Source: a virus (lineage: Duplodnaviria > Caudoviricetes). Taken from it: a DNA stretch of 39,701 nt. How positions within the stretch are numbered: the stretch's first letter is position 1; every line of letters begins with the position of its first letter. Both the position numbers and the translations under genes were made by a program. Under the pieces are notes generated by a model. The model made no database searches, was not told where the DNA came from, and saw nothing but the letters and a program-made list of their open reading frames with translations. This document shows positions 26,078 through 39,462 of the stretch, piece after piece. The DNA lies in the IMG/VR virus record IMGVR_UViG_3300030231_000303, positions 1 to 39,701 of that record. One strand, given 5' to 3'.

Positions 26078-26106
26078 ATTATACACTACTATTTAGGTAT
26101 TGTCAA
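26078..26106 (-). promoter_or_regulatory. Consensus sigma70 promoter for gp32 (TTGACA-N17-TATAAT), with a CTAAATA late-like motif in the spacer
   Basis: - strand TTGACA atacctaaatagtagtg TATAAT, 28 nt upstream of the gp32 ATG. Confidence 0.8.
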
Positions 26107-26602
26107 CCCTTGATATAACAAGGTTTGCGAGGAATTTATGACCTTCCTCATTAGGATGTCCACGAGGTGCTCTAGGATATGGATCATTGGTAACATAATC
26201 AACAGGAACCTTCGTATCATGTTGTATTGATAGTATAAAATGAGGTCTATCTTTTAGTATAGATTTCATAGCATGATACATTATCATCTCATCTATCTTA
26301 CCATACTCATCAGTGTACATGTCTTTCAAAAAAGGATGAGGGACTGATGTCTGAATTCTTTGCCACCCATCATTATAAAACTCTGTTCTCATTCTTTTTG
26401 TCATTTGTATAATAAACATCTCATACTGTGACAGATCATGACTCAGTAAATTCCTTAGTATTCTTCTGTTACTACCACCACCCACAGCAATATTATAATC
26501 TTCTACTCCAAAATGATTAGCAACTAACCTACTATATCTTTTAGTTTCTTTATCATCAAGTTCTGCTCCCATAGTAACAGAGCAACCATCAAAATAAATC
26601 AT
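26093..26602 (-). CDS. SGNH/GDSL-hydrolase-like protein
   Basis: N-terminal DGCSVTMG (GDS-like block I), NIAVGGGSN (block II) and C-terminal GHPNEEGHKFLA (block V). Confidence 0.6.
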   Translation of the reverse strand: MIYFDGCSVTMGAELDDKETKRYSRLVANHFGVEDYNIAVGGGSNRRILRNLLSHDLSQYEMFIIQMTKRMRTEFYNDGWQRIQTSVPHPFLKDMYTDEYGKIDEMIMYHAMKSILKDRPHFILSIQHDTKVPVDYVTNDPYPRAPRGHPNEEGHKFLANLVISRVDNT

Positions 26603-27654: not shown

Positions 27655-27983
27655 TAGTGTTTTAGTGTAGATTGTAAAGCGTTGAGTGTGACTTTCATGT
27701 TCTTGAATATACTACCAAGATCTGCGTCACCAAATCCCATTTCTTTTGACCCCTTCTCTAAGTTCTGTTTCATTATTTTTGCAGAAGGATCATCTGATAA
27801 TGATAGTCTTGTCCACATTATTTCTTGCTTCTCTAGTAACTCTTTTACAGTTTCAATGTGATGCCACTTAGCTTCATCACTCATCTTAGGAAAATCTTTT
27901 ATAACCTCATACAATTCTTTCTGTAAATCCATGATGTCTTCCATCTCACCACGGACAGTTTCTGATTGAAAAAACTCACTCAT
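27654..27983 (-). CDS. DUF1825-like protein
   Basis: MSEFFQSETVRGEM...LLEKQEIMWTRLSLSDDPSA matches the cyanobacterial/cyanophage DUF1825 pattern. Start moved to the ATG at 27983, which follows a GAGG RBS. Confidence 0.65.
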   Translation of the reverse strand: MSEFFQSETVRGEMEDIMDLQKELYEVIKDFPKMSDEAKWHHIETVKELLEKQEIMWTRLSLSDDPSAKIMKQNLEKGSKEMGFGDADLGSIFKNMKVTLNALQSTLKH

Positions 27984-28578
27984 GATACCTCTCTTTGACT
28001 TTTTGTAATAGGTGATCTTTGTATTTCTTCTTGTCAATATTTAGAAACGGTATGTACTTCCTTATCTTTAGTCCTACGGTATTCCACACTGGATCATCTA
28101 ATTGTTTATCATAGTCTTTACAGTAAGAAAATATCTTTTCATAGATGCACATCTCTTCCACACTTATCCTTCCAGCAAGATGTTCTTTGAGTATAGGTGG
28201 GTGACCTTTAGATGCATCAAAGAACTCATCATAATCATACTCATCCATCATCTCATCTGATTGTTGCTTGAAGTTATAGAATAAACTCTGCTGTCTCTTC
28301 ATCCACTCCTTGTATACTACCTCACCTGTTTTTATTATGTTCCCTATCCATAATCCTTGAGGATTGTCAGTATCTACAAAGTTAGCAAGAAAGAAATCAC
28401 ATATCTCATCATCTTTATACTTTCTAGATGTCTTCTCAAAGAAGTACCTATCCTTTCTCTTATAAAATGAATCTATCTTTGCTCTTGATCTGCCACCATA
28501 CCTATGATAGTCATATTTTTCCTTAGTAAAATGATTTTTAAAAGCAAGATACTTTGTGTAAGTGTCAAACGGTGTCAT
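27976..28578 (-). CDS. gp59: Loader of DNA helicase
   Basis: YLAFKNHFT...YDY..YGG.......FYKRKDRYFFEK...KIRKYIPFL is the gp59 signature. Confidence 0.85.
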   Translation of the reverse strand: MTPFDTYTKYLAFKNHFTKEKYDYHRYGGRSRAKIDSFYKRKDRYFFEKTSRKYKDDEICDFFLANFVDTDNPQGLWIGNIIKTGEVVYKEWMKRQQSLFYNFKQQSDEMMDEYDYDEFFDASKGHPPILKEHLAGRISVEEMCIYEKIFSYCKDYDKQLDDPVWNTVGLKIRKYIPFLNIDKKKYKDHLLQKVKERYHE

Positions 28579-29638
28579 AATGTGGAGGGTTGATCATCTC
28601 AACGTGTTTCTTTTTCTTAGAATCTAATTGCTGTGCTGCAGTAAACCATTTAGGGTTAGCAGAACACATGTCACAAATGTCACGAGGTTCTAAGACCTCT
28701 TGGAATGATGCTCTCAACTCATCTTCAGATGCACCAATGCTAGTTGGTTTGTATGCCAGATACTTTTGCCACTTAGGATCATCTAACTGACCTGTGACTG
28801 CTAATGATTCTCTGAGGTAAGATATCATGGGACACTTCCATAGATGTCCATTGTATAGTTGTGAATTAGGACAACTACAATGCTTGAAACTTTCTGTAAT
28901 GTTATGGTCTTCATAAGGATAGTATTTGATACCATCACTGTAATCATACTTGACTAGATCAAACCATACTCTTGGTTGACCATTGTCCATACGGAATGCT
29001 TCACTCAATTCAAATGTATTGCCATTGACATCAAGACCTCTAGACTCAGCATACTTTACAAACTCATAAGCATTCTGCCAATTTTTGACTCCCTTCATTG
29101 TATACCATGGGAAATGAAATGTCAATCGGAAAACAACTCCCTTCAACATCTCATCAACTATCCACTCCTTCTCTTGTAACAACCTAGAACCATTACTAAA
29201 CAACTTTACTACACAAGGTTGCCCAGTACGCTTTGACAACTCTCTGACCCTCTGTGTGACCTCTCTGGTGCGAGGTTCTAACAATGGTTCACCACCTATT
29301 ATACTAATATGACTCCAAACAAATATTTTAGGTAGTATATTTTCTATATCAACCAATAACTGATCAATATCTATCTTACTACTAGCACTCAACAAACTAC
29401 TATTATGATTACAAGCACGACATGCTAAGTTACACCCATTGATAGTGTGTATACTTAGTAGTCTAGTAGTAGGTCTCCTCTTTTCTAATCGTTTTATCTC
29501 TTCATCGGACACATGTTGAAAGTTATCTGTCCAAAATCCTTTGAGTGATCTTATATATTCTACCTTCTTTGACAATGAATCTACATTACAATCACGTAAA
29601 CATGCCTTTGCTAATTTACGTTCTTTCCACAGATTCAT
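28565..29638 (-). CDS. Radical SAM protein A
   Basis: CNLACRAC (CxxxCxxC), IIGGEPLL, FSNG; C-terminal CSCPN...LWKCP...CDMC auxiliary cysteines. Confidence 0.85.
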   Translation of the reverse strand: MNLWKERKLAKACLRDCNVDSLSKKVEYIRSLKGFWTDNFQHVSDEEIKRLEKRRPTTRLLSIHTINGCNLACRACNHNSSLLSASSKIDIDQLLVDIENILPKIFVWSHISIIGGEPLLEPRTREVTQRVRELSKRTGQPCVVKLFSNGSRLLQEKEWIVDEMLKGVVFRLTFHFPWYTMKGVKNWQNAYEFVKYAESRGLDVNGNTFELSEAFRMDNGQPRVWFDLVKYDYSDGIKYYPYEDHNITESFKHCSCPNSQLYNGHLWKCPMISYLRESLAVTGQLDDPKWQKYLAYKPTSIGASEDELRASFQEVLEPRDICDMCSANPKWFTAAQQLDSKKKKHVEMINPPHYDTV

Positions 29639-29639
29639 A

Positions 29640-29906
29640 TCATAATGCTACAAATTTAGCTCTAGATGTTTTCTTTAAATAATTTAGTTCACTTGCATTA
29701 CCTTTCAACTTCTCTTTCATTGGTTTGCTGATAAGTTTACTTACAGATTCAATTTCTATACTATTCTGTTCACAGTAGTGACAGATTGCTTCAATATAAT
29801 TCATACCAGAATTATCTTTGACTAGGTTCTCAATATCATTGGAGAACTTGTCCTGACATAGGAACTTGTTCTTCAATACTGATCTCATCTCTGCTTTAGT
29901 TGCCAT
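29640..29906 (-). CDS. gp33: Late promoter transcription accessory protein
   Basis: F...IE.LV......YIEAI.HYCE.N.IE.E...KLISKP.KEKL...A.ELNYLK is the gp33 signature. Confidence 0.85.
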   Translation of the reverse strand: MATKAEMRSVLKNKFLCQDKFSNDIENLVKDNSGMNYIEAICHYCEQNSIEIESVSKLISKPMKEKLKGNASELNYLKKTSRAKFVAL

Positions 29907-30555
29907 TTAGTTTGTCCTCTACAAATTTGTTGATGTACTCTACAAGTAATTTCATATACTTCATTTTATCATACTCTTGATAAACTGTCACTTCTCCGTT
30001 CTCACATGTCATAAGTATGACAAGTTTCTTGACAGGGATACCAGTCCTCTCGTAGAACATACATGCATACGCTGCTGCCTGTACAAAGTAGTTCTCAATC
30101 CAGTCTCTTGGTTTAGGTTTAGCTGCTGTTTTGAAATCTATTATAGACAACTCACCATCATATTCTGCAATACAATCTACCGTACCTGCAACACCTAACT
30201 CGGTAGAATAAAGACTCTTTTCAAGAGCGTATATATTATTTATCTTTTCTAAAGATTCTTTAGCCTGCAGAAATAACATCTTAGAACCAGGTGTATCAGG
30301 ATCCACATCCTTATTCAATAGATGATTCTCTATTAGAGTATGTACTTTAGTGCCACGAGTAGTAGATCTTTTAGTAACTCTATCTGCTTCTTCATCACCA
30401 ACTCTCTTCCTCCACTTGACAAAGATCTCTTTGTTGAAGTGAGAAGTAACCGATGTGATAGACACCATTGGTCTATTTTCTACAGTATAGTATCGCACTC
30501 CCTCAATAGTCTTCCTACTCAGAGCAGGAAGATCACATTCTACATGAGTAAACAT
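29896..30555 (-). CDS. PD-(D/E)XK exonuclease
   Basis: RGTKVH..IE...AGTVDCIAEY.GELSIIDFKT...YFVQAAAY; occupies the usual position after phoH in cyanomyoviruses. Confidence 0.8.
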   Translation of the reverse strand: MFTHVECDLPALSRKTIEGVRYYTVENRPMVSITSVTSHFNKEIFVKWRKRVGDEEADRVTKRSTTRGTKVHTLIENHLLNKDVDPDTPGSKMLFLQAKESLEKINNIYALEKSLYSTELGVAGTVDCIAEYDGELSIIDFKTAAKPKPRDWIENYFVQAAAYACMFYERTGIPVKKLVILMTCENGEVTVYQEYDKMKYMKLLVEYINKFVEDKLNGN

Positions 30556-31310
30556 TACATACCTAATTCAATTTTACTTACAAGGTAACTCTTGACAAGA
30601 CCTGATCTTACGATGTCATTGATGTCGAACTCAACTAAATCAAACTCAGGCATACGTTGAACGATCTTCTGAAAATCTAGAATACCATTCTTCTCGTTTG
30701 TCCTAATAAGATCTGTTTGTGCTGCGTCACCACAGAAATGGATCTTACAATTCTCACCACACCTTGTTATTATACTATCTAACTCATGAAAATTCAAGTT
30801 TTGTGACTCATCTACAATCACAATTGAATCATCTAGTGTAGTACCACGGATAAAAGATGTAGACCAGAAGGTTACACTCTCCTGTTCCTTGAGATTGCCC
30901 CATAACATTTCAAATTCTTGATCAGTAGGCAACTCAAACATATATTTGACCATATTTTTATATGGTATCTGGTATAAGAATGATTTGTCCTCATGATCAC
31001 CAGGTAAGAAACCAATCTCCCTTGTAGACACTAAAGATCTTACTATCACTACCTTATTGTAAGGAGTTATAGGATCTAAAACGTCTTTTAGTGCATTGTA
31101 CAGGGTTATAAATGTTTTACCCGTACCAGCAGCACCATATAGGAATAGATTTTTACCTTCTTTATATGATTCAAAGGCAATTTTTTGATTAGCAGTGATA
31201 GGTTCCACTGCTACCATCTGATCAACGTTGTATGGTTTCTTTCTCTTCATTTGCTTAGTAGACCTACCAAGTCCAACGTTGTTGGCCATTTTCTTTTTTC
31301 TTGCTGGCAT
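30555..31310 (-). CDS. phoH: PhoH-like ATPase
   Basis: GAAGTGKT Walker A, IGFLPG, FIRGTTL, IVDESQN, GDAAQTDL, DIVRSGLV. Confidence 0.92.
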   Translation of the reverse strand: MPARKKKMANNVGLGRSTKQMKRKKPYNVDQMVAVEPITANQKIAFESYKEGKNLFLYGAAGTGKTFITLYNALKDVLDPITPYNKVVIVRSLVSTREIGFLPGDHEDKSFLYQIPYKNMVKYMFELPTDQEFEMLWGNLKEQESVTFWSTSFIRGTTLDDSIVIVDESQNLNFHELDSIITRCGENCKIHFCGDAAQTDLIRTNEKNGILDFQKIVQRMPEFDLVEFDINDIVRSGLVKSYLVSKIELGM

Positions 31311-31561
31311 TAGAAGTGAGTTCTTTTTTGAGGTTTTACTTTGGATCCTGGCACTTGTGCTACTTTAGATAACACTTCTTGCCAACCTCCATCAGTTCTA
31401 GAGTACACATCTCCTGTACCACTGACTACTCCTCCTGATCCTTTCGACCAATCTTTATCCCAATCAGGGTTATCTTTTCTCCACTCATCATACTCTTTCA
31501 TTGTCATAGACAGTTCTTTGGTCTCACCTGTCTTCAAATTTTTTAGTGGATATGTTGGCAT
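31310..31561 (-). CDS. Conserved T4-like hypothetical protein (FmdB-like, without cysteines)
   Basis: MPTYP.KN.KTGE...W.EVLSKV...PGS is typical of the gene preceding phoH. An ATAAATA motif lies upstream at 31580-31586. Confidence 0.65.
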   Translation of the reverse strand: MPTYPLKNLKTGETKELSMTMKEYDEWRKDNPDWDKDWSKGSGGVVSGTGDVYSRTDGGWQEVLSKVAQVPGSKVKPQKRTHF

Positions 31562-32348
31562 GGGTGTTTGCGAGTGATTTATTTATTGAGTCCTGAATAG
31601 CAGCACTAAAGTGTAATGGTTTAGCAGTACACATATTGCATACGTTCTCTGCTATTCTACTATTAGTACAGAACTTTGTCAATTCATCATCACTACAATC
31701 AACAGACACTCCATCTACAATATAATCTTGCCATTCATCATCATCACTTTGTCCTGTGACAGACAGCAACTCTCTCAAAAATGCAGTGTTAGGACACTTC
31801 CATAGTCTACCATTGTATAACTGAGCGTTAGGACAGGAGCAAACCTTATAACTTTTACTGATATTATTATGGTTGTAAGGATGTACTTTACCGTCTCGTT
31901 TTTTTATTGAATCAAACCATCTATCCTTACCAGTATGGTGTTCGGTGACCAGTACCTTAGGATGATTGAACTTCTTTATTATATCCACCACTTCGGGTAA
32001 ATGTACGCTGACTCGTAGATATATTTTAGGGTCTTCTAATGCTCTTCTAATCCAAGTTTCATTCTGTAAGAGAAGTAAACCGTTAGTGTATAGATAGACA
32101 ACATTTCTAGTGTGTGATCTGCATTCATGTAGTATCTCCTCACATCTGGGGTTTAGTAAAGGTTCACCGCCAATGATGGACACTCTATCTATATCCAGTC
32201 TTGGTAAGATAACTCTTATATCTCTCAACAAAGCATCAGTATCTAACTTACTACCAGAGGAAAAGTAATTGCTGAAATGGTTGCACCCTTTGCAGGATAA
32301 ATTACAACCTATCGTAGTACTTACGTCAAGTATGCTCAGTTTTGGCAA
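31524..32348 (-). CDS. Radical SAM protein B (paralogue of A)
   Basis: CNLSCKGC, IIGGEPLL, YTNG; CSCPNAQLYNGRLWKCP...CNMC. Confidence 0.85.
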   Translation of the reverse strand: MPKLSILDVSTTIGCNLSCKGCNHFSNYFSSGSKLDTDALLRDIRVILPRLDIDRVSIIGGEPLLNPRCEEILHECRSHTRNVVYLYTNGLLLLQNETWIRRALEDPKIYLRVSVHLPEVVDIIKKFNHPKVLVTEHHTGKDRWFDSIKKRDGKVHPYNHNNISKSYKVCSCPNAQLYNGRLWKCPNTAFLRELLSVTGQSDDDEWQDYIVDGVSVDCSDDELTKFCTNSRIAENVCNMCTAKPLHFSAAIQDSINKSLANTHANISTKKFEDR

Positions 32349-33090
32349 GATAAGCAGCTCCTATACTAGTGCCTCCATCAGTGGAGATTGGTTCAGCATA
32401 AATTTGTCTACCCAATTCCTTCTTTAGCATGTAGTTAACAGTACAATTCAAGAAGCAACCACCAACAAGTATTAGATTTTTATCTGTTAGGTCTGCTAAC
32501 TCAAGTGCTCTCTTCTCCCACCTTTTCTGTACATTATAACAATCACTAGGTCCATAAGATGCTTTACCCATGACCTTACCAGCATCCATGTAATGCCATC
32601 CATGTCTAATACAACACTGCTCAAAATCCTTACCAGTTCCTATGTTAGATTGATCAAAATATCTTTTATGTATCACATTCCATGATGGAAGATCATACAT
32701 GCTTTCTATTTCTATCTTCTCACCTGTCTTAGAACCATTAGCATCCACCACAATGACAACTGCATCATCAAACCCAGACCTATACCATGCACATGCAGCA
32801 TGAGTCATGTGATGACGGTCACGATAGTCATAGACCTTTGCATTAGGAAACATCTTAGTTACCATTCTTAGATCCATCACTGATAATAGTTGTTCAGTTG
32901 GATTATCCCAGTAACAATGTGATACTGCTATCACATCAATATTACAATCAATATATGGCAGTAAACATTTGATTGAATTACTATACTTTTTTCTATTAAT
33001 TCTTTCTGCTTCCAAATAAAAATCCACTACACCATCTTTCATGATGCAGATAGATGCGTTATTAGATAAGTTTACTCCTAATATATTCAT
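32326..33090 (-). CDS. Carbamoyltransferase N-terminal (Kae1-like) domain protein 2
   Basis: ILGVN...EAERINRKK...HHMTHAACA...VVDANG...GKVMG...GGCFLNC..N...DGGTSIGAA are NodU/CmcH N-domain motifs. Confidence 0.85.
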   Translation of the reverse strand: MNILGVNLSNNASICIMKDGVVDFYLEAERINRKKYSNSIKCLLPYIDCNIDVIAVSHCYWDNPTEQLLSVMDLRMVTKMFPNAKVYDYRDRHHMTHAACAWYRSGFDDAVVIVVDANGSKTGEKIEIESMYDLPSWNVIHKRYFDQSNIGTGKDFEQCCIRHGWHYMDAGKVMGKASYGPSDCYNVQKRWEKRALELADLTDKNLILVGGCFLNCTVNYMLKKELGRQIYAEPISTDGGTSIGAAYLAKTEHT

Positions 33091-33160
33091 AAAAACCTAG
33101 GGGGCAAAAAATTTACGGAGTTTTTTTCCCCGAATATTTGAAAATAAAAAGTCATTTTCC
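33091..33160. repeat. Degenerate copy 3 of the intergenic element
   Basis: AAAAACCTAGGGGGCAAAAAATTTACGGAGTTTTTTTCCCCG...AAAAAGTCATTTT has the same AAAAACCTA / CAAAAAA / GTTTTTTTC / AAAAGT..ATTTT blocks as copies 1 and 2, but the inner hairpin is weakened. Confidence 0.55.
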
Positions 33161-33793
33161 CCTAAGTATACCGATCTCTGGAAAGTAAATGTAATCTAAC
33201 TCACTGTTCTCTAGTGTTCTGATAGCATCCTCTGGTGTCTCAACCATTGGTTCACCTGCTAGATTGAATGATGTGTTGAGTAGTATAGGTAGTGATGTAA
33301 TTTTCTCAAACTCAGTTATCAAATCATAGAAGTGTTGGTTCTGTTCTCTCGTAACAGTTTGAACTCTACATGTATTATCAACATGATTGATTGCAGGTAA
33401 ATTATCCACCCAATCTTCTCTCATATCAACAGCAAAGGTCATGAACGGTGACTCATCTAGACCTGCCATGTCAAAGTACTTGTTAGCATGTTCTTTTAGA
33501 ACAGTACCTGCAAAGGGTCTAAATGCTTCTCTATGCTTGATTTTATTTACTTTATCCTTTCCCATAGGATCTCTAGGATCATAAAGTATAGAGCGATTAC
33601 CTAGTGCTCTTGGACCTGCTTCAGATCTACCCTGAAATATTGCTATGACCTTACGTCCATCTCCAGAATAAAACTTATCCTTCTCCAAATATTTTTCACC
33701 ATAAGCTAAGAGTGATGCTACTTGTTTAGGAGTAACACTCTCACCACTAATATTAGATAGATCATACTTAGGTCCGAGGTAAATGTTTTTCAT
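33152..33793 (-). CDS. Carbamoyltransferase C-terminal (YrdC-like) domain protein
   Basis: IYLGP.Y...FQGRSEAGPRALGNRSIL.DP...VNKIKHREAFRPFA...SPFM...HVDNTCRVQTV...LNTSFN.AGEP.V.TP.DA. Start taken at the ATG at 33793, which overlaps the upstream stop (ATGA). Confidence 0.9.
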   Translation of the reverse strand: MKNIYLGPKYDLSNISGESVTPKQVASLLAYGEKYLEKDKFYSGDGRKVIAIFQGRSEAGPRALGNRSILYDPRDPMGKDKVNKIKHREAFRPFAGTVLKEHANKYFDMAGLDESPFMTFAVDMREDWVDNLPAINHVDNTCRVQTVTREQNQHFYDLITEFEKITSLPILLNTSFNLAGEPMVETPEDAIRTLENSELDYIYFPEIGILRGK

Positions 33794-34302
33794 AACCAAT
33801 TTGGTTTTCTGGATGGGTCACGTAGATAATTAGATGCAGCCCAAGGTTTGCTGCCAATGTAATTTTGGTAAGCAGTAAAAGTGTCAATGCTTGTGTCATG
33901 TTTATACTCATCAGGCATAGCACGAGTAAAAGACTTGGGTGTGGTTGGTTTACGAAGAGGAATAATACTTGCTGCTTCTTCTATAGTTTGCTGACAACTA
34001 TGCACCTTACCATATCTATGCGTATACTCTGCACACAATGCTAGACCATGAGTAAGTAACCACCATGTATTAGTCAGTGATTCATTTGCCCAGATAGTAC
34101 AAGGATGATTACGGAATGCACCTTTCTCTGTCTTGTATGGTTCGCCATTGGTACGATGCAATTGACCGTAACCATGACCCCACTTGTCAGAACAAACAAT
34201 AGAAAGCATTTGACATGTTTCTAATGGCATCTTGACAACATGCTTATCAGGTAAGCATTGAGCAGACGTATAGGGTGATGGATCAGTTACGAAGATGTTC
34301 AT
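33790..34302 (-). CDS. Pyrimidine-dimer DNA glycosylase / endonuclease V-like protein
   Basis: MNIF.....P..SA..LPDKHVVKMPLE.CQML...HPCTIW...L.LC.EYT.RYGKVH...AMPDEYK family pattern. Confidence 0.6.
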   Translation of the reverse strand: MNIFVTDPSPYTSAQCLPDKHVVKMPLETCQMLSIVCSDKWGHGYGQLHRTNGEPYKTEKGAFRNHPCTIWANESLTNTWWLLTHGLALCAEYTHRYGKVHSCQQTIEEAASIIPLRKPTTPKSFTRAMPDEYKHDTSIDTFTAYQNYIGSKPWAASNYLRDPSRKPNWL

Positions 34303-35320
34303 AATGTTCTAATAATGCAGACCCAATAGCAATACCACCATCGTATGCAATAGGATCTACGTACAAATTTATATCTAACTCTTTTATTATACTCTGATTT
34401 GCTGCACAATTCAAGAAGAATCCTCCACTCACAACAACATTCTTTTTCCCACTCATCTCAACTGCTTTCTTTATCATAAAGATTGCATGTTTTTCAGCAG
34501 ACTTTTGTAATCTATATGCTAAATCTTCTGGTCGGTATGCAGTACCGTGATATTCAGTTGTATTTCCTGAAGCATAAAGTTCTTTACTACAAAGACTATG
34601 ATTGTACTCCTCTACGAATAGGTCTGTTGGTGTACCAGAATGTCCGTAAGCAGAGAGACCCATAGTTTTACCTGCCTCTATCTCATCAAAGTTACAGTAC
34701 CTTGAGACTCTTCTGAATGCTTGACCTACACTAGTCCTATCACTATAAAGATTCCCCTTGTACCAGTAAGGTTCATCTAATAATTCACACTCATCCTCAT
34801 TCCAAAAGGTAGAGTAATGTTTGAACAGAGGAATGAACTCACCAGAATAATCATAGATGCTTTCTATCTCAGCATACCTCAATTGAACACCTGCAGATTC
34901 ATAACCTTCTGTTTGTGCCACACTATCATCAGTATGATAAGAACCTTTACCATCCATCACTACACACACTGCATCATCAAACCCTGAGTTATAAAATGCA
35001 CTAGCAGCATGACACTCATGATGCCTGTTTCTATAGTCTACAATAGATAAACAACCTCTTGATCTAGCAATCTTACAGAGTTCATTTTTGGCTTTGGTTC
35101 TATCGAGGAAGGTTTGTCTAGTATATCTTGTAAAACAATCACATATGGTAAGAACATCAATACTAGAATCAATATACTTATCGGCAAGAGCCTTCGCACT
35201 GATGTCTCTTTTAGTTCTTGTGACACGTTCTTCCTCTAGGTAAAATTCTATCTCACCATCATGTAATATAACAAGTGAACCATTTTTTGCAAGATTTATT
35301 CCTGCGATTCTTTTTCCCAT
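34283..35320 (-). CDS. Carbamoyltransferase N-terminal (Kae1-like) domain protein 1
   Basis: EEERVTRTK...HHECHAASAFYNSGF...VMDGKG...GKTMGLSAYG...LAYRLQ...SGGFFLNC.AN...DGGIAIGSA. Confidence 0.88.
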   Translation of the reverse strand: MGKRIAGINLAKNGSLVILHDGEIEFYLEEERVTRTKRDISAKALADKYIDSSIDVLTICDCFTRYTRQTFLDRTKAKNELCKIARSRGCLSIVDYRNRHHECHAASAFYNSGFDDAVCVVMDGKGSYHTDDSVAQTEGYESAGVQLRYAEIESIYDYSGEFIPLFKHYSTFWNEDECELLDEPYWYKGNLYSDRTSVGQAFRRVSRYCNFDEIEAGKTMGLSAYGHSGTPTDLFVEEYNHSLCSKELYASGNTTEYHGTAYRPEDLAYRLQKSAEKHAIFMIKKAVEMSGKKNVVVSGGFFLNCAANQSIIKELDINLYVDPIAYDGGIAIGSALLEHYEHLRN

Positions 35321-35943
35321 TCCAAAGCCTCACTAACAGCAGGGAACTGTTCAACAAATACATCTTTGACTGCCTTTGCAATCACCATGTGCTCTTTCTG
35401 AGTACCATGAGCAGACCTTAGATTTATATAGTGGATCCACGAACGACATGATCCTGTCATATAAATTCTGGTCGGTGTACACAGTGGTAGCACCATCCTA
35501 GCACACTCTTTTGCCACACCACACTCAAGCATTTGATTATATAATGCAGAAGAAGAACTGAATAAAGTTTTCATCTGCTTATTCAATTTGTCTACAACTT
35601 CAGGATCTAAATCATCAATAGAATTCTGACGGTTCTTTGAGTCTTGTCTTCTCAACTCTGGTAACACAATTGCTTCTAACAATTTAGTGTCAGCATATCT
35701 CTGACTAAACTCTTGAAAAGTAAATGATCTATGACGTAAGACCTGTGCTGCGATAGCACGAGTGGTCTCAATCTCTACTGTCATAGAAGACTGCTCGAAC
35801 ACAGACCAATGATTGTGCTTGATACAATACTTCAGCAGTCCAGCATACTTTTCATTCTCTTGATTGGCAGGGTTAGATACTCTGGCAATGTATGCCATCA
35901 TCTGTTCTGCATCAGGAGTAATACTTACTAACTTTACTGTCAT
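35296..35943 (-). CDS. thyX: Flavin-dependent thymidylate synthase
   Basis: HWSVFE...QVLRHRSFTFQEFSQRY (RHRx7S motif), KECARMVLP, HGTQKEH. Confidence 0.95.
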   Translation of the reverse strand: MTVKLVSITPDAEQMMAYIARVSNPANQENEKYAGLLKYCIKHNHWSVFEQSSMTVEIETTRAIAAQVLRHRSFTFQEFSQRYADTKLLEAIVLPELRRQDSKNRQNSIDDLDPEVVDKLNKQMKTLFSSSSALYNQMLECGVAKECARMVLPLCTPTRIYMTGSCRSWIHYINLRSAHGTQKEHMVIAKAVKDVFVEQFPAVSEALEWEKESQE

Positions 35944-36350
35944 GTTTTTTGAACTAAGAATTGTTCAATGTCGGTATATTCTAGCACATAAAATCTTGAT
36001 TTGAATCTATGTTGTGCTAACATCTTTTCCATACGATGTTTACCGTCAAGTAATCTATATTTTTTATTGAATGGATTAGGTGTATGTATACACAGAATAG
36101 GAGGGTAGTTTATATCACATCTAAAATACCTCACCCCATTACAACAAATACATTTATCTCTTCTTTGTTCTTCGGGTAAATGCATACCCTTCCATGCAAT
36201 ATCATCAAACAATACATCTTGCAACCTATCATCTGTCAATAGATGTTCTATATGTTTTAGATATAATTTACTCTCCTGTTCAGATAACCTCCAGTCACCA
36301 TAAGCACTAACGGTACAAGCATGTGACCCAGTTAGTTTATGATTCTTCAT
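35940..36350 (-). CDS. Hypothetical protein with a ParB/sulfiredoxin-like motif
   Basis: D..YPPIL......YRLLDGKHR resembles the ParB/Srx DGxHR motif; also has a CICC cluster. Start moved to the ATG at 36350, because the track's longer start overlaps the 36337..36489 gene. Confidence 0.5.
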   Translation of the reverse strand: MKNHKLTGSHACTVSAYGDWRLSEQESKLYLKHIEHLLTDDRLQDVLFDDIAWKGMHLPEEQRRDKCICCNGVRYFRCDINYPPILCIHTPNPFNKKYRLLDGKHRMEKMLAQHRFKSRFYVLEYTDIEQFLVQKT

Positions 36351-36489
36351 AAGATTCATCGTAATCCATCTCAACAGGTTCAATATCATCATACTTATAT
36401 GATTCTGTGTCAGAGTATACCTCTGCTTTCAATGCTGATAGAAGCATCTCAAGATCAGTAACAATAATTTTTAGTTTGTCTTTATCCAT
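36337..36489 (-). CDS. Small acidic conserved cyanophage protein
   Basis: Read by hand: MDKDKLKIIVTDLEMLLSALKAEVYSDTESYKYDDIEPVEMDYDESYEES (50 aa). An extended -10 TGCTATACT lies at 36496-36504. Confidence 0.7.
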   Translation of the reverse strand: MDKDKLKIIVTDLEMLLSALKAEVYSDTESYKYDDIEPVEMDYDESYEES

Positions 36490-38511: not shown

Positions 38512-39462
38512 CTAGAGAGGTGTCAAATTTGCCAAGGTATTTTTCAATTCTAGATCAGCACTATGATCTTTTAGAACATTATAATTATACTCTAAAATAT
38601 CTAAAGGAACATGCACATCATCAAGAATAATATCCTCAATTGTTTTGACCAGAGCATCTCTCCTATCAGGCCACCAATCTATAGTGTCGTAAGATTCATC
38701 CCAATAATCAGAGAAAGTTTTGAATCCTAGGTCTCTCAATTTTTTCAAGACTCCCATCCTTCCAGCAATAACAAATCCCATCTTCAGTAGTATTGGTTTG
38801 AAAGTTTTTTCTGTGAGAAATACATGTCCATGATGATCATCACCTGCTACTGTTTCAGTGACCAACCAATACTCATAATCATATGACAAATCTTTAAAAA
38901 TATTCCATGCCTTATGTGTGTTTCCCTTTTGTTCAACATCATTGTGCCTGAAAATATATTTCATTTCACTTAATAATAATTCAGGAATTGAATGTTGTGG
39001 TGAGAGAACAAGTTCTCTATCTTTTATATACTGATACAATTCTCTTCTCCAAGGTCTATTCCTTCCGTTATAACAAATAAATTTCTTTGAAAATCTTTTC
39101 CATTGACTATGTAAATCAACCTCCCCTCTGTCTGGTGTCATCTCCTTTACAGCAGTAAGAAACATCTCCCAGTAAATATGATTCTTAACATATTTTTTAT
39201 CTTCAGTGTTGCTTGTAACCCAATACACATTATCATCATTACTATACTTGTTTCTAATATGTTTTAGTTCAGAATGTTCTTTTGTACAATCAAGAAAGAT
39301 ATAATTATCCTGTGTGTTATACCATCTAAGAATAGACTCAATATTCTCAGAGTTAATTGAATCTTCCAGGTTGAACCATAAAACATTCACATCATCTTTT
39401 ACATTAAGATGTTTTTGTTTTGCATAGATTGCTCTAGTTGATGGACTTACTATCTTTAGCAC
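38512..39462 (-). CDS. Hypothetical protein, glycosyltransferase (GT10/fucosyltransferase-like) C-terminal motif
   Basis: KKFICYNG..R.WR...LVTET......FLTEKTFKPILL...FVI.G....LKKLR.LGFKTF...WDESYD resembles the GT10-like Y.TEK motif; GTG start. Confidence 0.5.
   Translation of the reverse strand: MLKIVSPSTRAIYAKQKHLNVKDDVNVLWFNLEDSINSENIESILRWYNTQDNYIFLDCTKEHSELKHIRNKYSNDDNVYWVTSNTEDKKYVKNHIYWEMFLTAVKEMTPDRGEVDLHSQWKRFSKKFICYNGRNRPWRRELYQYIKDRELVLSPQHSIPELLLSEMKYIFRHNDVEQKGNTHKAWNIFKDLSYDYEYWLVTETVAGDDHHGHVFLTEKTFKPILLKMGFVIAGRMGVLKKLRDLGFKTFSDYWDESYDTIDWWPDRRDALVKTIEDIILDDVHVPLDILEYNYNVLKDHSADLELKNTLANLTPL

What the first reader, a model, noticed from the sequence alone, without database searches (positions are those of the whole stretch)
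28565..36350. Candidate uncharacterised modification pathway: split carbamoyltransferase, two radical SAM enzymes and a ParB-like protein woven into the thyX-phoH-gp33-gp59 core
Seen: in one co-oriented, tightly overlapping run the order is ParB-like, thyX, CarbT-N1, DenV-like glycosylase, CarbT-C, CarbT-N2, rSAM-B, FmdB-like, phoH, exonuclease, gp33, rSAM-A, gp59. Known: NodU/CmcH/TobZ-family enzymes transfer carbamoyl groups to hydroxyls, and a phage member of this family carbamoylates 5-hydroxymethylcytosine. ParB-like and radical SAM domains recur in predicted phage base-hypermodification loci. Inference: these genes form one pathway that modifies phage DNA/nucleotides (anti-restriction), or alternatively a glycan on the virion or host surface. 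No hydroxymethylase is visible here (thyX looks canonical), so the acceptor would be new or encoded elsewhere.
Basis: partly seen in the sequence, partly recalled or inferred. Interest (0 to 1): 0.85.

Follow-up and report, generated by a model that had tools for sequence, protein, structure and literature searches.

The report
Histidine-less split cyanophage carbamoyltransferase module
An uncultured ocean cyanophage encodes a carbamoyl-adding enzyme as three separate genes plus two iron-sulfur radical enzymes; both transfer halves lack the histidine that known relatives need, and the set likely decorates sugars of a phage-made glycan, possibly on amine groups, rather than the phage's DNA.

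Summary
The gene order is real. C, N2, N1 and both radical SAM genes form a conserved module of one uncultured cyanophage lineage, under purifying selection. The ParB-like gene and denV are passengers. DNA-base modification is not supported: no hydroxymethylase or C5-methylase in complete relatives, while the positive control rang; hydroxymethylase-linked phage enzymes are a distant branch; these genomes avoid restriction-type sites. Both radical SAM proteins are SpeY-like (rSAM-B model Z 21.8), and their relatives sit in polysaccharide loci. A complete relative carries a large NDP-sugar/glycosyltransferase cluster. Here both transfer subunits lack the TobZ His14 base: N2 has Asn, the substitution that kills GdmN; N1 has Lys, as in HypF (60, 80, 126). 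The 120 nearest fused enzymes all keep His (132). Best reading, inferred: glycan-sugar tailoring, possibly oxidise, transaminate, N-carbamoylate. Nothing is tested at the bench. The scan found this module before on other DNA (at least five notes). Not in those notes as shown: His loss in N1, the HypF/TsaD parallel, site avoidance.

The parts
33152..33793 (-). CarbT-C: stand-alone YrdC/TsaC-like carbamoyl-AMP-forming subunit (213 aa)
   Evidence: PF16861 E 8e-63; best PDB match VtdB E 1e-42; dN/dS 0.10-0.19
34283..35320 (-). CarbT-N1: Kae1-like transfer subunit (345 aa); metal motif intact, Lys12 in place of the catalytic His
   Evidence: PF02543; TobZ match; alignments; fused to C as a 530-aa protein in relatives
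32326..33090 (-). CarbT-N2: compact Kae1-like transfer subunit (254 aa); metal ligands H93/H97/D116/D238 invariant, Asn10 in place of the catalytic His
   Evidence: best PDB sequence match is TobZ H14N, 3VEX; invariant columns in 42 sequences; model pLDDT 90.5
31524..32348 (-). rSAM-B: SpeY-like twitch radical SAM enzyme (274 aa), overlaps the end of N2
   Evidence: profile E 1e-26 to 7WZV; Foldseek E 3e-11; VIA Z 21.8, rmsd 2.6, 232 aligned
28565..29638 (-). rSAM-A: paralogue of rSAM-B (357 aa, 39% identical) in the gp33-gp59 slot
   Evidence: tends to co-occur with N1
33106..33132 (-). A-tract/T-tract element at the C to N2 junction, non-coding here, inside the N2 5' end in many relatives
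33790..34302 (-). denV pyrimidine-dimer glycosylase: passenger
   Evidence: PF03013; 7 of 26 C-bearing loci
35940..36392 (-). small protein with a ParB/Srx-type motif: passenger
   Evidence: 1 of 26 C-bearing loci
35296..35943 (-). thyX (core gene, canonical)
   Evidence: PF02511 E 9e-49
29640..31561 (-). core genes: small regulator, phoH, exonuclease, gp33 (scaffold, not part of the module)
   Evidence: same order in module-negative phages
27976..28578 (-). gp59 helicase loader (core)

Best explanation
The window encodes a three-gene NodU/TobZ-type carbamoyltransferase with two His-less transfer subunits and two SpeY-like radical SAM enzymes, which likely tailor sugar residues of a phage-specified glycan rather than DNA bases. 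Shown: genes, folds, motifs, co-occurrence, purifying selection. Inferred steps: (1) C makes carbamoyl-AMP from ATP and host carbamoyl phosphate and serves both N1 and N2; (2) rSAM-B (with N2) and rSAM-A (with N1) oxidise or epimerise a sugar or cyclitol carbinol; (3) a DegT-type aminotransferase from the lineage's NDP-sugar cluster would turn the ketone into an amine; (4) N1 and N2, having no His base to activate an alcohol, would carbamoylate that amine to give a ureido sugar; (5) glycosyltransferases would place the sugar on host LPS (superinfection exclusion) or on virion proteins. I put sugar tailoring at about 0.6. Within it, an amine acceptor is about even against O-carbamoylation with a substitute base.
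For: Radical SAM identity: SpeY is the clear top match, BtrN second. Cellular relatives: 54 of 79 bacterial loci have a glycan gene within 8 kb (Pfam on 73 proteins). Same lineage, same gp33-gp59 slot: L142 holds fused CarbT, a radical SAM, a glycosyltransferase, an rSAM-A-like gene, an NAD epimerase and DegT; L092/L225/L228 hold fused CarbT, a radical SAM, UDP-glucose-dehydrogenase-like and GT8-like genes. S-SCSM2R has the radical SAM homologue between an aminotransferase-family gene, glycosyltransferases and an inosamine amidinotransferase. Complete relative G004 has four NDP-sugar epimerases, DegT and GT2/10/11/17/25, conserved in G005, G007, G008. P-SSM2 gp308 sits beside heptose genes; wapO is the putative LPS-heptose carbamoyltransferase (PMC8005017 passages). 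Shared C: N2 is with C in 60 of 60 loci, C+N2 lack N1 in 21, N1-C fusions exist. His column: His in 120 of 120 nearest fused enzymes, Lys in 3 of 3 HypF, Cys in 4 of 4 TsaD; GdmN H27N is inactive (PMC9633730 passages); N2 dN/dS 0.15-0.18.
Against: All functional evidence is association; no substrate is shown. The window itself has no nucleotide-sugar genes, only a GT10-like lead at Atlas score 0.80 and an SGNH-like gene. None of the 79 bacterial radical SAM loci holds a carbamoyltransferase C homologue. The 54 of 79 count has no background control, its queries came from those loci, and many rows are related Planctomycetes. The N1/rSAM-A pairing is not significant after phylogenetic correction (about 3 of 4 independent pairs agree, none oppose, p 0.25), with exceptions L022 and L062. 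Six loci have C+N2 without rSAM-B. N1 keeps His in a sister clade, so the amine reading cannot be general for N1. Six N2 proteins read Glu-His at the site. LPS sugars are made by cytoplasmic and membrane steps, and no flippase or ligase was seen in G004.
Confidence: 0.6

Rival explanations
1. The module carbamoylates phage DNA or nucleotides for anti-restriction: either the known 5hmC route or, given the split His-less TsaC/TsaD-like layout, an exocyclic amine at a subset of sites.
For: Located among nucleotide and replication genes. A phage family member carbamoylates 5hmC (PMC8670742 passages). TsaD transfers to adenine N6 (PMC10484737 passages) and lacks the His.
Against: PF00303 absent in 0 of 5 and 0 of 5 records, including complete S-RIM44, Sf-FP1 and G004, while both hydroxymethylase-linked control phages rang twice. 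PF00145 in 0 of 5. The controls are about 30% identical and on a separate long branch, with Thr where the window keeps the TobZ-type Arg. Yang et al. report that enzymes on unmodified contigs are flanked by glycosyltransferases. The window and relatives avoid CCGG, GCGC, RGCY and TTAA, as expected of DNA still open to restriction; however, control BF494P1 also avoids GATC and CTAG, and the TET search had no positive control.
Confidence: 0.1
2. The module makes or tailors a diffusible small molecule (aminocyclitol- or aminoglycoside-like), as proposed for the S-SSM6a carbamoyltransferase cluster.
For: SpeY, BtrN and TobZ act in aminocyclitol antibiotic pathways (PDB titles; pathway roles recalled). 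Iyer et al. offer capsular decoration or a secondary metabolite (PMC7824862 section 3.4.10).
Against: Bacterial radical SAM relatives are mostly in surface-polysaccharide loci; G004 has polymer-type glycosyltransferases and no halogenase hit among 136 proteins scanned.
Confidence: 0.12
3. The His-less subunits carbamoylate a protein amine or thiol (Lys or Cys of a virion or host protein), like StdF or HypF.
For: N1 has the HypF-type Lys-Asn. A NodU-like enzyme carbamoylates peptide lysine (PMC13174530 passages). Some fused cyanophage enzymes lie among head or tail genes and 2OG oxygenases.
Against: The radical SAM partners resemble sugar-alcohol enzymes far more than peptide maturases (Z 21.8 against 11.7). 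StdF's residue at the His site was not checked.
Confidence: 0.1
4. The genes are unrelated morons gathered in insertion hot spots of one lineage; N2 is a non-catalytic paralogue.
For: All N2-bearing loci in the tree fall in one clade, so co-occurrence is largely shared descent. The same slots take many other genes. His to Asn kills GdmN.
Against: rSAM-B is never without C+N2 (54 of 54) and N2 never without C (60 of 60). C+N2 persist where N1 is lost. N2 keeps all metal ligands and evolves as slowly as C.
Confidence: 0.08

Closest known systems
TobZ / GdmN / NovN / VtdB / NodU O-carbamoyltransferases (PF02543 + PF16861; PDB 3VEN, 7VYJ, 9S2T, 7XB6)
   Same: Both domains, Kae1-like fold, HxxxH-D-D metal site, GPRALGNRS adenylation motif.
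   Different: Three genes instead of one; two transfer subunits for one activating subunit; general-base His replaced by Lys and Asn; N2 about 90 aa shorter than N1.
Split C+N carbamoyltransferase of isolated cyanophages S-RIM44 and Sf-FP1
   Same: Same slot between thyX and the small regulator, separate C and N genes, already annotated.
   Different: One N subunit, which keeps His; no radical SAM neighbours.
Phage 5hmC carbamoyltransferase (Yang et al. 2021, PMC8670742)
   Same: Same Pfam families, phage-encoded.
   Different: Single 63-kDa chain linked to a PF00303 hydroxymethylase; phages with that signature are about 30% identical and a separate branch; no hydroxymethylase in this lineage.
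SpeY twitch radical SAM dehydrogenase (PDB 7WZV) and BtrN
   Same: Whole-length fold match, CxxxCxxC plus four further conserved Cys.
   Different: 19% identity; substrate-binding residues not compared; phage context; dehydrogenase versus epimerase undecided.
HypF (S-carbamoylation) and TsaC/TsaD (N6-threonylcarbamoylation)
   Same: YrdC-like plus Kae1-like chemistry without the His; HypF has Lys at the column as N1 does; TsaC/TsaD are separate proteins.
   Different: By sequence and fold N1, N2 and C are NodU/TobZ-type; scores are far below the HypF and TsaD cut-offs.
Cyanophage LPS-like sugar clusters (P-SSM2, S-SSM7, S-SCSM2R) and Pseudomonas wapO
   Same: Carbamoyltransferases or the same radical SAM family next to sugar genes.
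   Different: Those carbamoyltransferases are fused and keep His; function of the phage clusters is itself only proposed.

Membership tests
NodU/TobZ O-carbamoyltransferases | Kae1-like (PF02543) and YrdC-like (PF16861) domains | tested here: met
NodU/TobZ O-carbamoyltransferases | HxxxH...D...D metal site | tested here: met
   N1 and N2 alignments
NodU/TobZ O-carbamoyltransferases | general-base His (TobZ H14, GdmN H27) | tested here: not met
   Lys in N1, Asn in N2; His in 120 of 120 fused relatives
NodU/TobZ O-carbamoyltransferases | both domains in one chain | tested here: not met
   three ORFs, conserved as such; N1-C fusions exist in relatives; no fused Asn-type protein among the best 120 of 1917 longer hits
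NodU/TobZ O-carbamoyltransferases | ATP-dependent transfer to a hydroxyl | not testable with these tools
   needs assay
Phage 5hmC carbamoyltransferase system | co-encoded PF00303 hydroxymethylase | tested here: not met
   positive control
Phage 5hmC carbamoyltransferase system | membership of the modified-contig clade | tested here: inconclusive
   the paper's sequences were not held; two proxy phages with the same gene signature are a distant long branch
C5-MT + TET hypermodification loci | C5 methyltransferase | tested here: not met
   PF00145 in 0 of 5 records
C5-MT + TET hypermodification loci | TET/JBP dioxygenase | tested here: inconclusive
   none over the cut-off, no positive control
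SpeY-like twitch radical SAM enzymes | CxxxCxxC, GGEP and C-terminal auxiliary-cluster cysteines; SpeY fold | tested here: met
   (structure modelled for rSAM-B only)
SpeY-like twitch radical SAM enzymes | oxidation or epimerisation of a sugar carbinol | not testable with these tools
   needs assay
ParB/Srx superfamily | profile or structure match | tested here: inconclusive
   no Pfam hit; minor ParB clusters in Atlas; not folded
HypF / TsaD | score over the NCBIfam cut-off | tested here: not met
   N1 28 bits against 466 (HypF), 21 against 208 (TsaD)

The most novel reading that the evidence does not exclude
The split, His-less enzyme is a phage re-invention of TsaC/TsaD or HypF chemistry inside the NodU family: an N-carbamoyltransferase that, at its boldest, writes a ureido group on nucleobase amines at a subset of DNA or RNA sites, a base modification without a hydroxymethyl handle. 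The milder form, a ureido sugar made by radical oxidation, transamination and N-carbamoylation, is more likely (about 0.3) and would deserve about 0.7.
Probability: 0.06. Interest if true: 0.9.

Novelty: new variant of a known kind. Interest (0 to 1): 0.47.

Why it matters
Cyanophage carbamoyltransferases have been annotated since 2010 without a substrate. This lineage gives small soluble subunits, natural His/Lys/Asn variants and a candidate partner enzyme, so the question becomes testable in vitro. If the His-less subunits work on amines, the NodU/TobZ family has a branch that changed acceptor class, and a one-activator, two-transferase design useful for adding carbamoyl or ureido groups to sugars. 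It would also say what widespread ocean phages do with their sugar clusters. It is probably not a new DNA modification.

Tried and rejected
Complex prediction of N2 with rSAM-B: no answer, score 0.00; not used either way. TET/JBP search: one sub-cut-off match in Sf-FP1 (E 7e-4) and nothing elsewhere with no positive control. N2 as a TsaB-like inert partner of N1: rejected, since it keeps all metal ligands and occurs without N1 in 21 loci. QueE/7-deazaguanine role for the radical SAM proteins: weak PHROG hit but B. subtilis QueE only Z 6.2 and no other pathway gene among 136 G004 proteins. TTAA loss as UV-dimer avoidance: rejected because AATT is not depleted. No TTAA-specific nuclease candidate was identified. 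Promoter scan: 47 sites against 37.5 +/- 6.7 in shuffles, uninformative; four TATAAATA boxes, none in the module. RNA-library contigs cover parts of the module but do not show transcription. No held paper on SpeY/HygY, so their pathway roles are recalled. The residues of Yang's modified clade at W408/G421/R423 are in a figure supplement that is not held; the listed supplements were not opened. PMC11360552 and PMC10436341 (passages) added nothing; the latter labels a cyanophage carbamoyltransferase as pyrBI. A findings search with eight words returned nothing.
Full report
Observation. The window is a 39.7-kb fragment of a T4-like marine cyanophage; G000 is the window alone. The carbamoyltransferase is truly in three ORFs: N1 (345 aa) and N2 (254 aa) are 30% identical paralogues of the Kae1-like domain, and C is the YrdC-like domain. 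The two radical SAM proteins are 39% identical.

What travels together. A split C+N pair at this slot is already annotated in isolates S-RIM44 and Sf-FP1, and C+N2+rSAM-B is in single-cell virus AG-345-D19. I mapped loci gathered with rSAM-A, C, a radical SAM alignment and phoH (so the sample is biased towards the module). Of 176 loci with phoH, 122 span the upstream slot: N2 occurs in 60, always with C; rSAM-B in 54, always with C+N2; C+N2 lack N1 in 21 (not dereplicated). Of 86 loci spanning both slots, 60 remain after dereplication and 26 carry C. Among these, rSAM-A is in 16 of 18 with N1 and 1 of 8 without (Fisher p 4e-4), although core genes separate them. On a core-gene tree this shrinks to four independent pairs, about three agreeing and none opposing (p 0.25), so the pairing is suggestive only. 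All 30 N2-bearing rows of that tree form one clade. The ParB-like gene is in 1 of 26 and denV in 7 of 26: passengers. N1 is fused to C in a 530-aa protein in several relatives, and an SGNH-like gene replaces rSAM-B in L038 and L040-L043. dN/dS against relatives with dS above 0.1 is 0.05-0.19 for all five module genes.

DNA modification tested. The known phage enzyme acts on 5hmC and co-occurs with PF00303 only on modified contigs (PMC8670742, passages). Acinetobacter phage MD-2021a and Bacteroides phage BF494P1 show that signature (their modification is inferred). Their C domains are 30-31% identical to the window's, against 41-64% for the other named phages, sit on a separate long branch, and have Thr where the window keeps Arg in the PRALGNR motif (long-branch caveat). 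PF00303 was found in 0 of 5 records and 0 of 5 more, including complete S-RIM44, Sf-FP1 and the 192-kb relative G004 (100% complete), while both control phages rang twice. PF00145 was in 0 of 5. TET/JBP is inconclusive. The window has CCGG 0 of 12.8 expected, GCGC 0 of 7.9, AGCT 41 of 104 and TTAA 48 of 224; G004 has TTAA 0 of 713, and different relatives lack different 4- and 6-mers. That fits DNA open to host restriction enzymes. It is moderate evidence: control BF494P1 also avoids GATC and CTAG.

The radical SAM partners. A profile of 47 sequences matches PDB 7WZV over the whole length (E 1e-26; next 1e-12). The rSAM-B model (pLDDT 89) gives SpeY by Foldseek and VIA-align (Z 21.8; BtrN 12.6). 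That SpeY and BtrN oxidise sugar or cyclitol alcohols is partly recalled; searches found no held paper. Of the best 80 of 480 genome loci, one (L142) is a phage contig of this lineage; 54 of the other 79 have a glycan gene within 8 kb (no background control), and none has a C homologue. In L142 the gp33-gp59 slot holds a fused carbamoyltransferase, another radical SAM, a glycosyltransferase, an rSAM-A-like gene, an NAD epimerase and DegT. In S-SCSM2R the homologue lies between an aminotransferase-family gene, glycosyltransferases and an inosamine amidinotransferase. In G004 I scanned 136 of 159 ORFs of 130 aa or more (left out: four over 900 aa, 14 matching window genes, five presumed structural or replication genes): four NDP-sugar epimerases, DegT, GT2/10/11/17/25, Dam, and a second, fused carbamoyltransferase beside a radical SAM gene. 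The sugar cluster is conserved in G005, G007 and G008; G001, G002, G006 and the window appear not to reach it.

The missing histidine. N2's best PDB sequence match is 3VEX, TobZ H14N, and Asn10 aligns with His14. GdmN H27N loses all activity and the His is called universal in that subclade (PMC9633730, passages). Across loci N2 has Asn in 79 and Glu in 6 (these read Glu-His), N1 has Lys in 24 and His in 18, and fused N1-C has Lys in 10 (not dereplicated). The window has Lys in N1 and Asn in N2, so neither subunit has the base. The best 120 of 1917 longer homologues all keep His. Metal ligands are invariant and the N2 model has the TobZ fold. In one alignment the column holds Lys in 3 of 3 HypF and Cys in 4 of 4 TsaD, enzymes that transfer to a thiol and to an amine (PMC10484737, passages and a reference title). 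A NodU-like enzyme acting on a lysine amine is also reported (PMC13174530, passages). I infer that the acceptor needs no deprotonation by His, which suits an amine.

Mechanism, inferred. C adenylates carbamoyl phosphate and feeds either N subunit. Each radical SAM enzyme oxidises or epimerises a sugar position; DegT would make the amine; N1 or N2 would cap it as a ureido sugar; glycosyltransferases would install it on host LPS or on virion proteins. The S-SCSM2R cassette offers a parallel, with an amidinotransferase in place of the carbamoyltransferase. Published views of cyanophage sugar clusters favour surface modification, untested (PMC7029224 and PMC12801897 passages; PMC7824862 section 3.4.10). 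wapO gives a precedent for carbamoylated LPS (PMC8005017 passages). I put sugar tailoring at 0.6, a small molecule at 0.12, nucleic acid at 0.10, protein at 0.10 and unrelated morons at 0.08.

Novelty. Cyanophage carbamoyltransferases were tabulated in 2010 (PMC3037559, passages). Searches listed no paper on a three-part or His-less form with SpeY-like partners; subscription papers are mostly not held. The scan noted this module on other genomes before; those notes gave me the SpeY, N2-histidine and subunit-pairing leads, which I tested. Not in those notes as shown: His loss in N1 as well, the HypF/TsaD parallel, and restriction-site avoidance. Verdict: a real, conserved new variant of a known enzyme family, probably not a DNA-modification system; interest 0.47.

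Noticed in passing
window 1-39701; G004, G001, G008; L045-L050, L055, L088-L101: TTAA is wholly absent from one clade (0 of 713 expected in 192 kb of G004; 0 of 329 and 0 of 217 in G001, G008) and depleted in the window (48 of 224), but near normal (0.7-1.1) in module-negative phages. G004 also lacks AGTACT, GACGTC, GTCGAC, TTCGAA. A host MseI-like enzyme (name recalled) or a phage nuclease that shreds AT-rich host DNA could explain it; no candidate gene found.
   Followed up: partly
window 33106-33132: A-tract/T-tract element conserved at the C to N2 junction (loose pattern in 66 of 95 loci), one or two strict copies in five of seven long contigs, kept whether or not it is translated; in the window a 22-codon ORF runs through it and overlaps both the C stop and the N2 start.
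   Followed up: partly
window 38512-39462: 316-aa ORF without family hit; Atlas lead to GT10 fucosyltransferases at score 0.80.
   Followed up: partly
window 26093-26602; L018, L020, L028, L038-L043: SGNH/GDSL-like gene (31% to a G004 protein with a weak Lipase_GDSL hit), expanded to four tandem copies in some relatives and replacing rSAM-B after N2 in others.
   Followed up: partly
L088:3195-4307; L129:3035-4219: Two further radical SAM families (about 370 aa upstream of thyX in 16 loci; about 394 aa in the gp33-gp59 slot in 9 loci) in the same lineage.
   Followed up: no
L142 (PAQA01000006.1): A contig in a 'Rhodospirillaceae' MAG is a cyanophage contig of this lineage (thyX-C-N2-phoH-gp33-gp59), apparently mis-binned.
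   Followed up: yes
L051-L054, L127, L132: Tandem duplicated rSAM-A paralogues (about 59% and 43% to the window's) in the gp33-gp59 slot.
   Followed up: no
L022, L025, L030, L032, L087: Close relatives with no thyX at its usual position.
   Followed up: no
L069, L070: Acinetobacter phage MD-2021a and Bacteroides phage BF494P1 carry a carbamoyltransferase beside thymidylate-synthase homologues: cultured candidates for carbamoyl-5hmC DNA.
   Followed up: partly
L032:566-1618; L017:4927-5910; L109:3967-4464: Class I fructose-bisphosphate aldolase, a purM-like gene between N1 and C, and a SAM lyase family gene in relatives.
   Followed up: no
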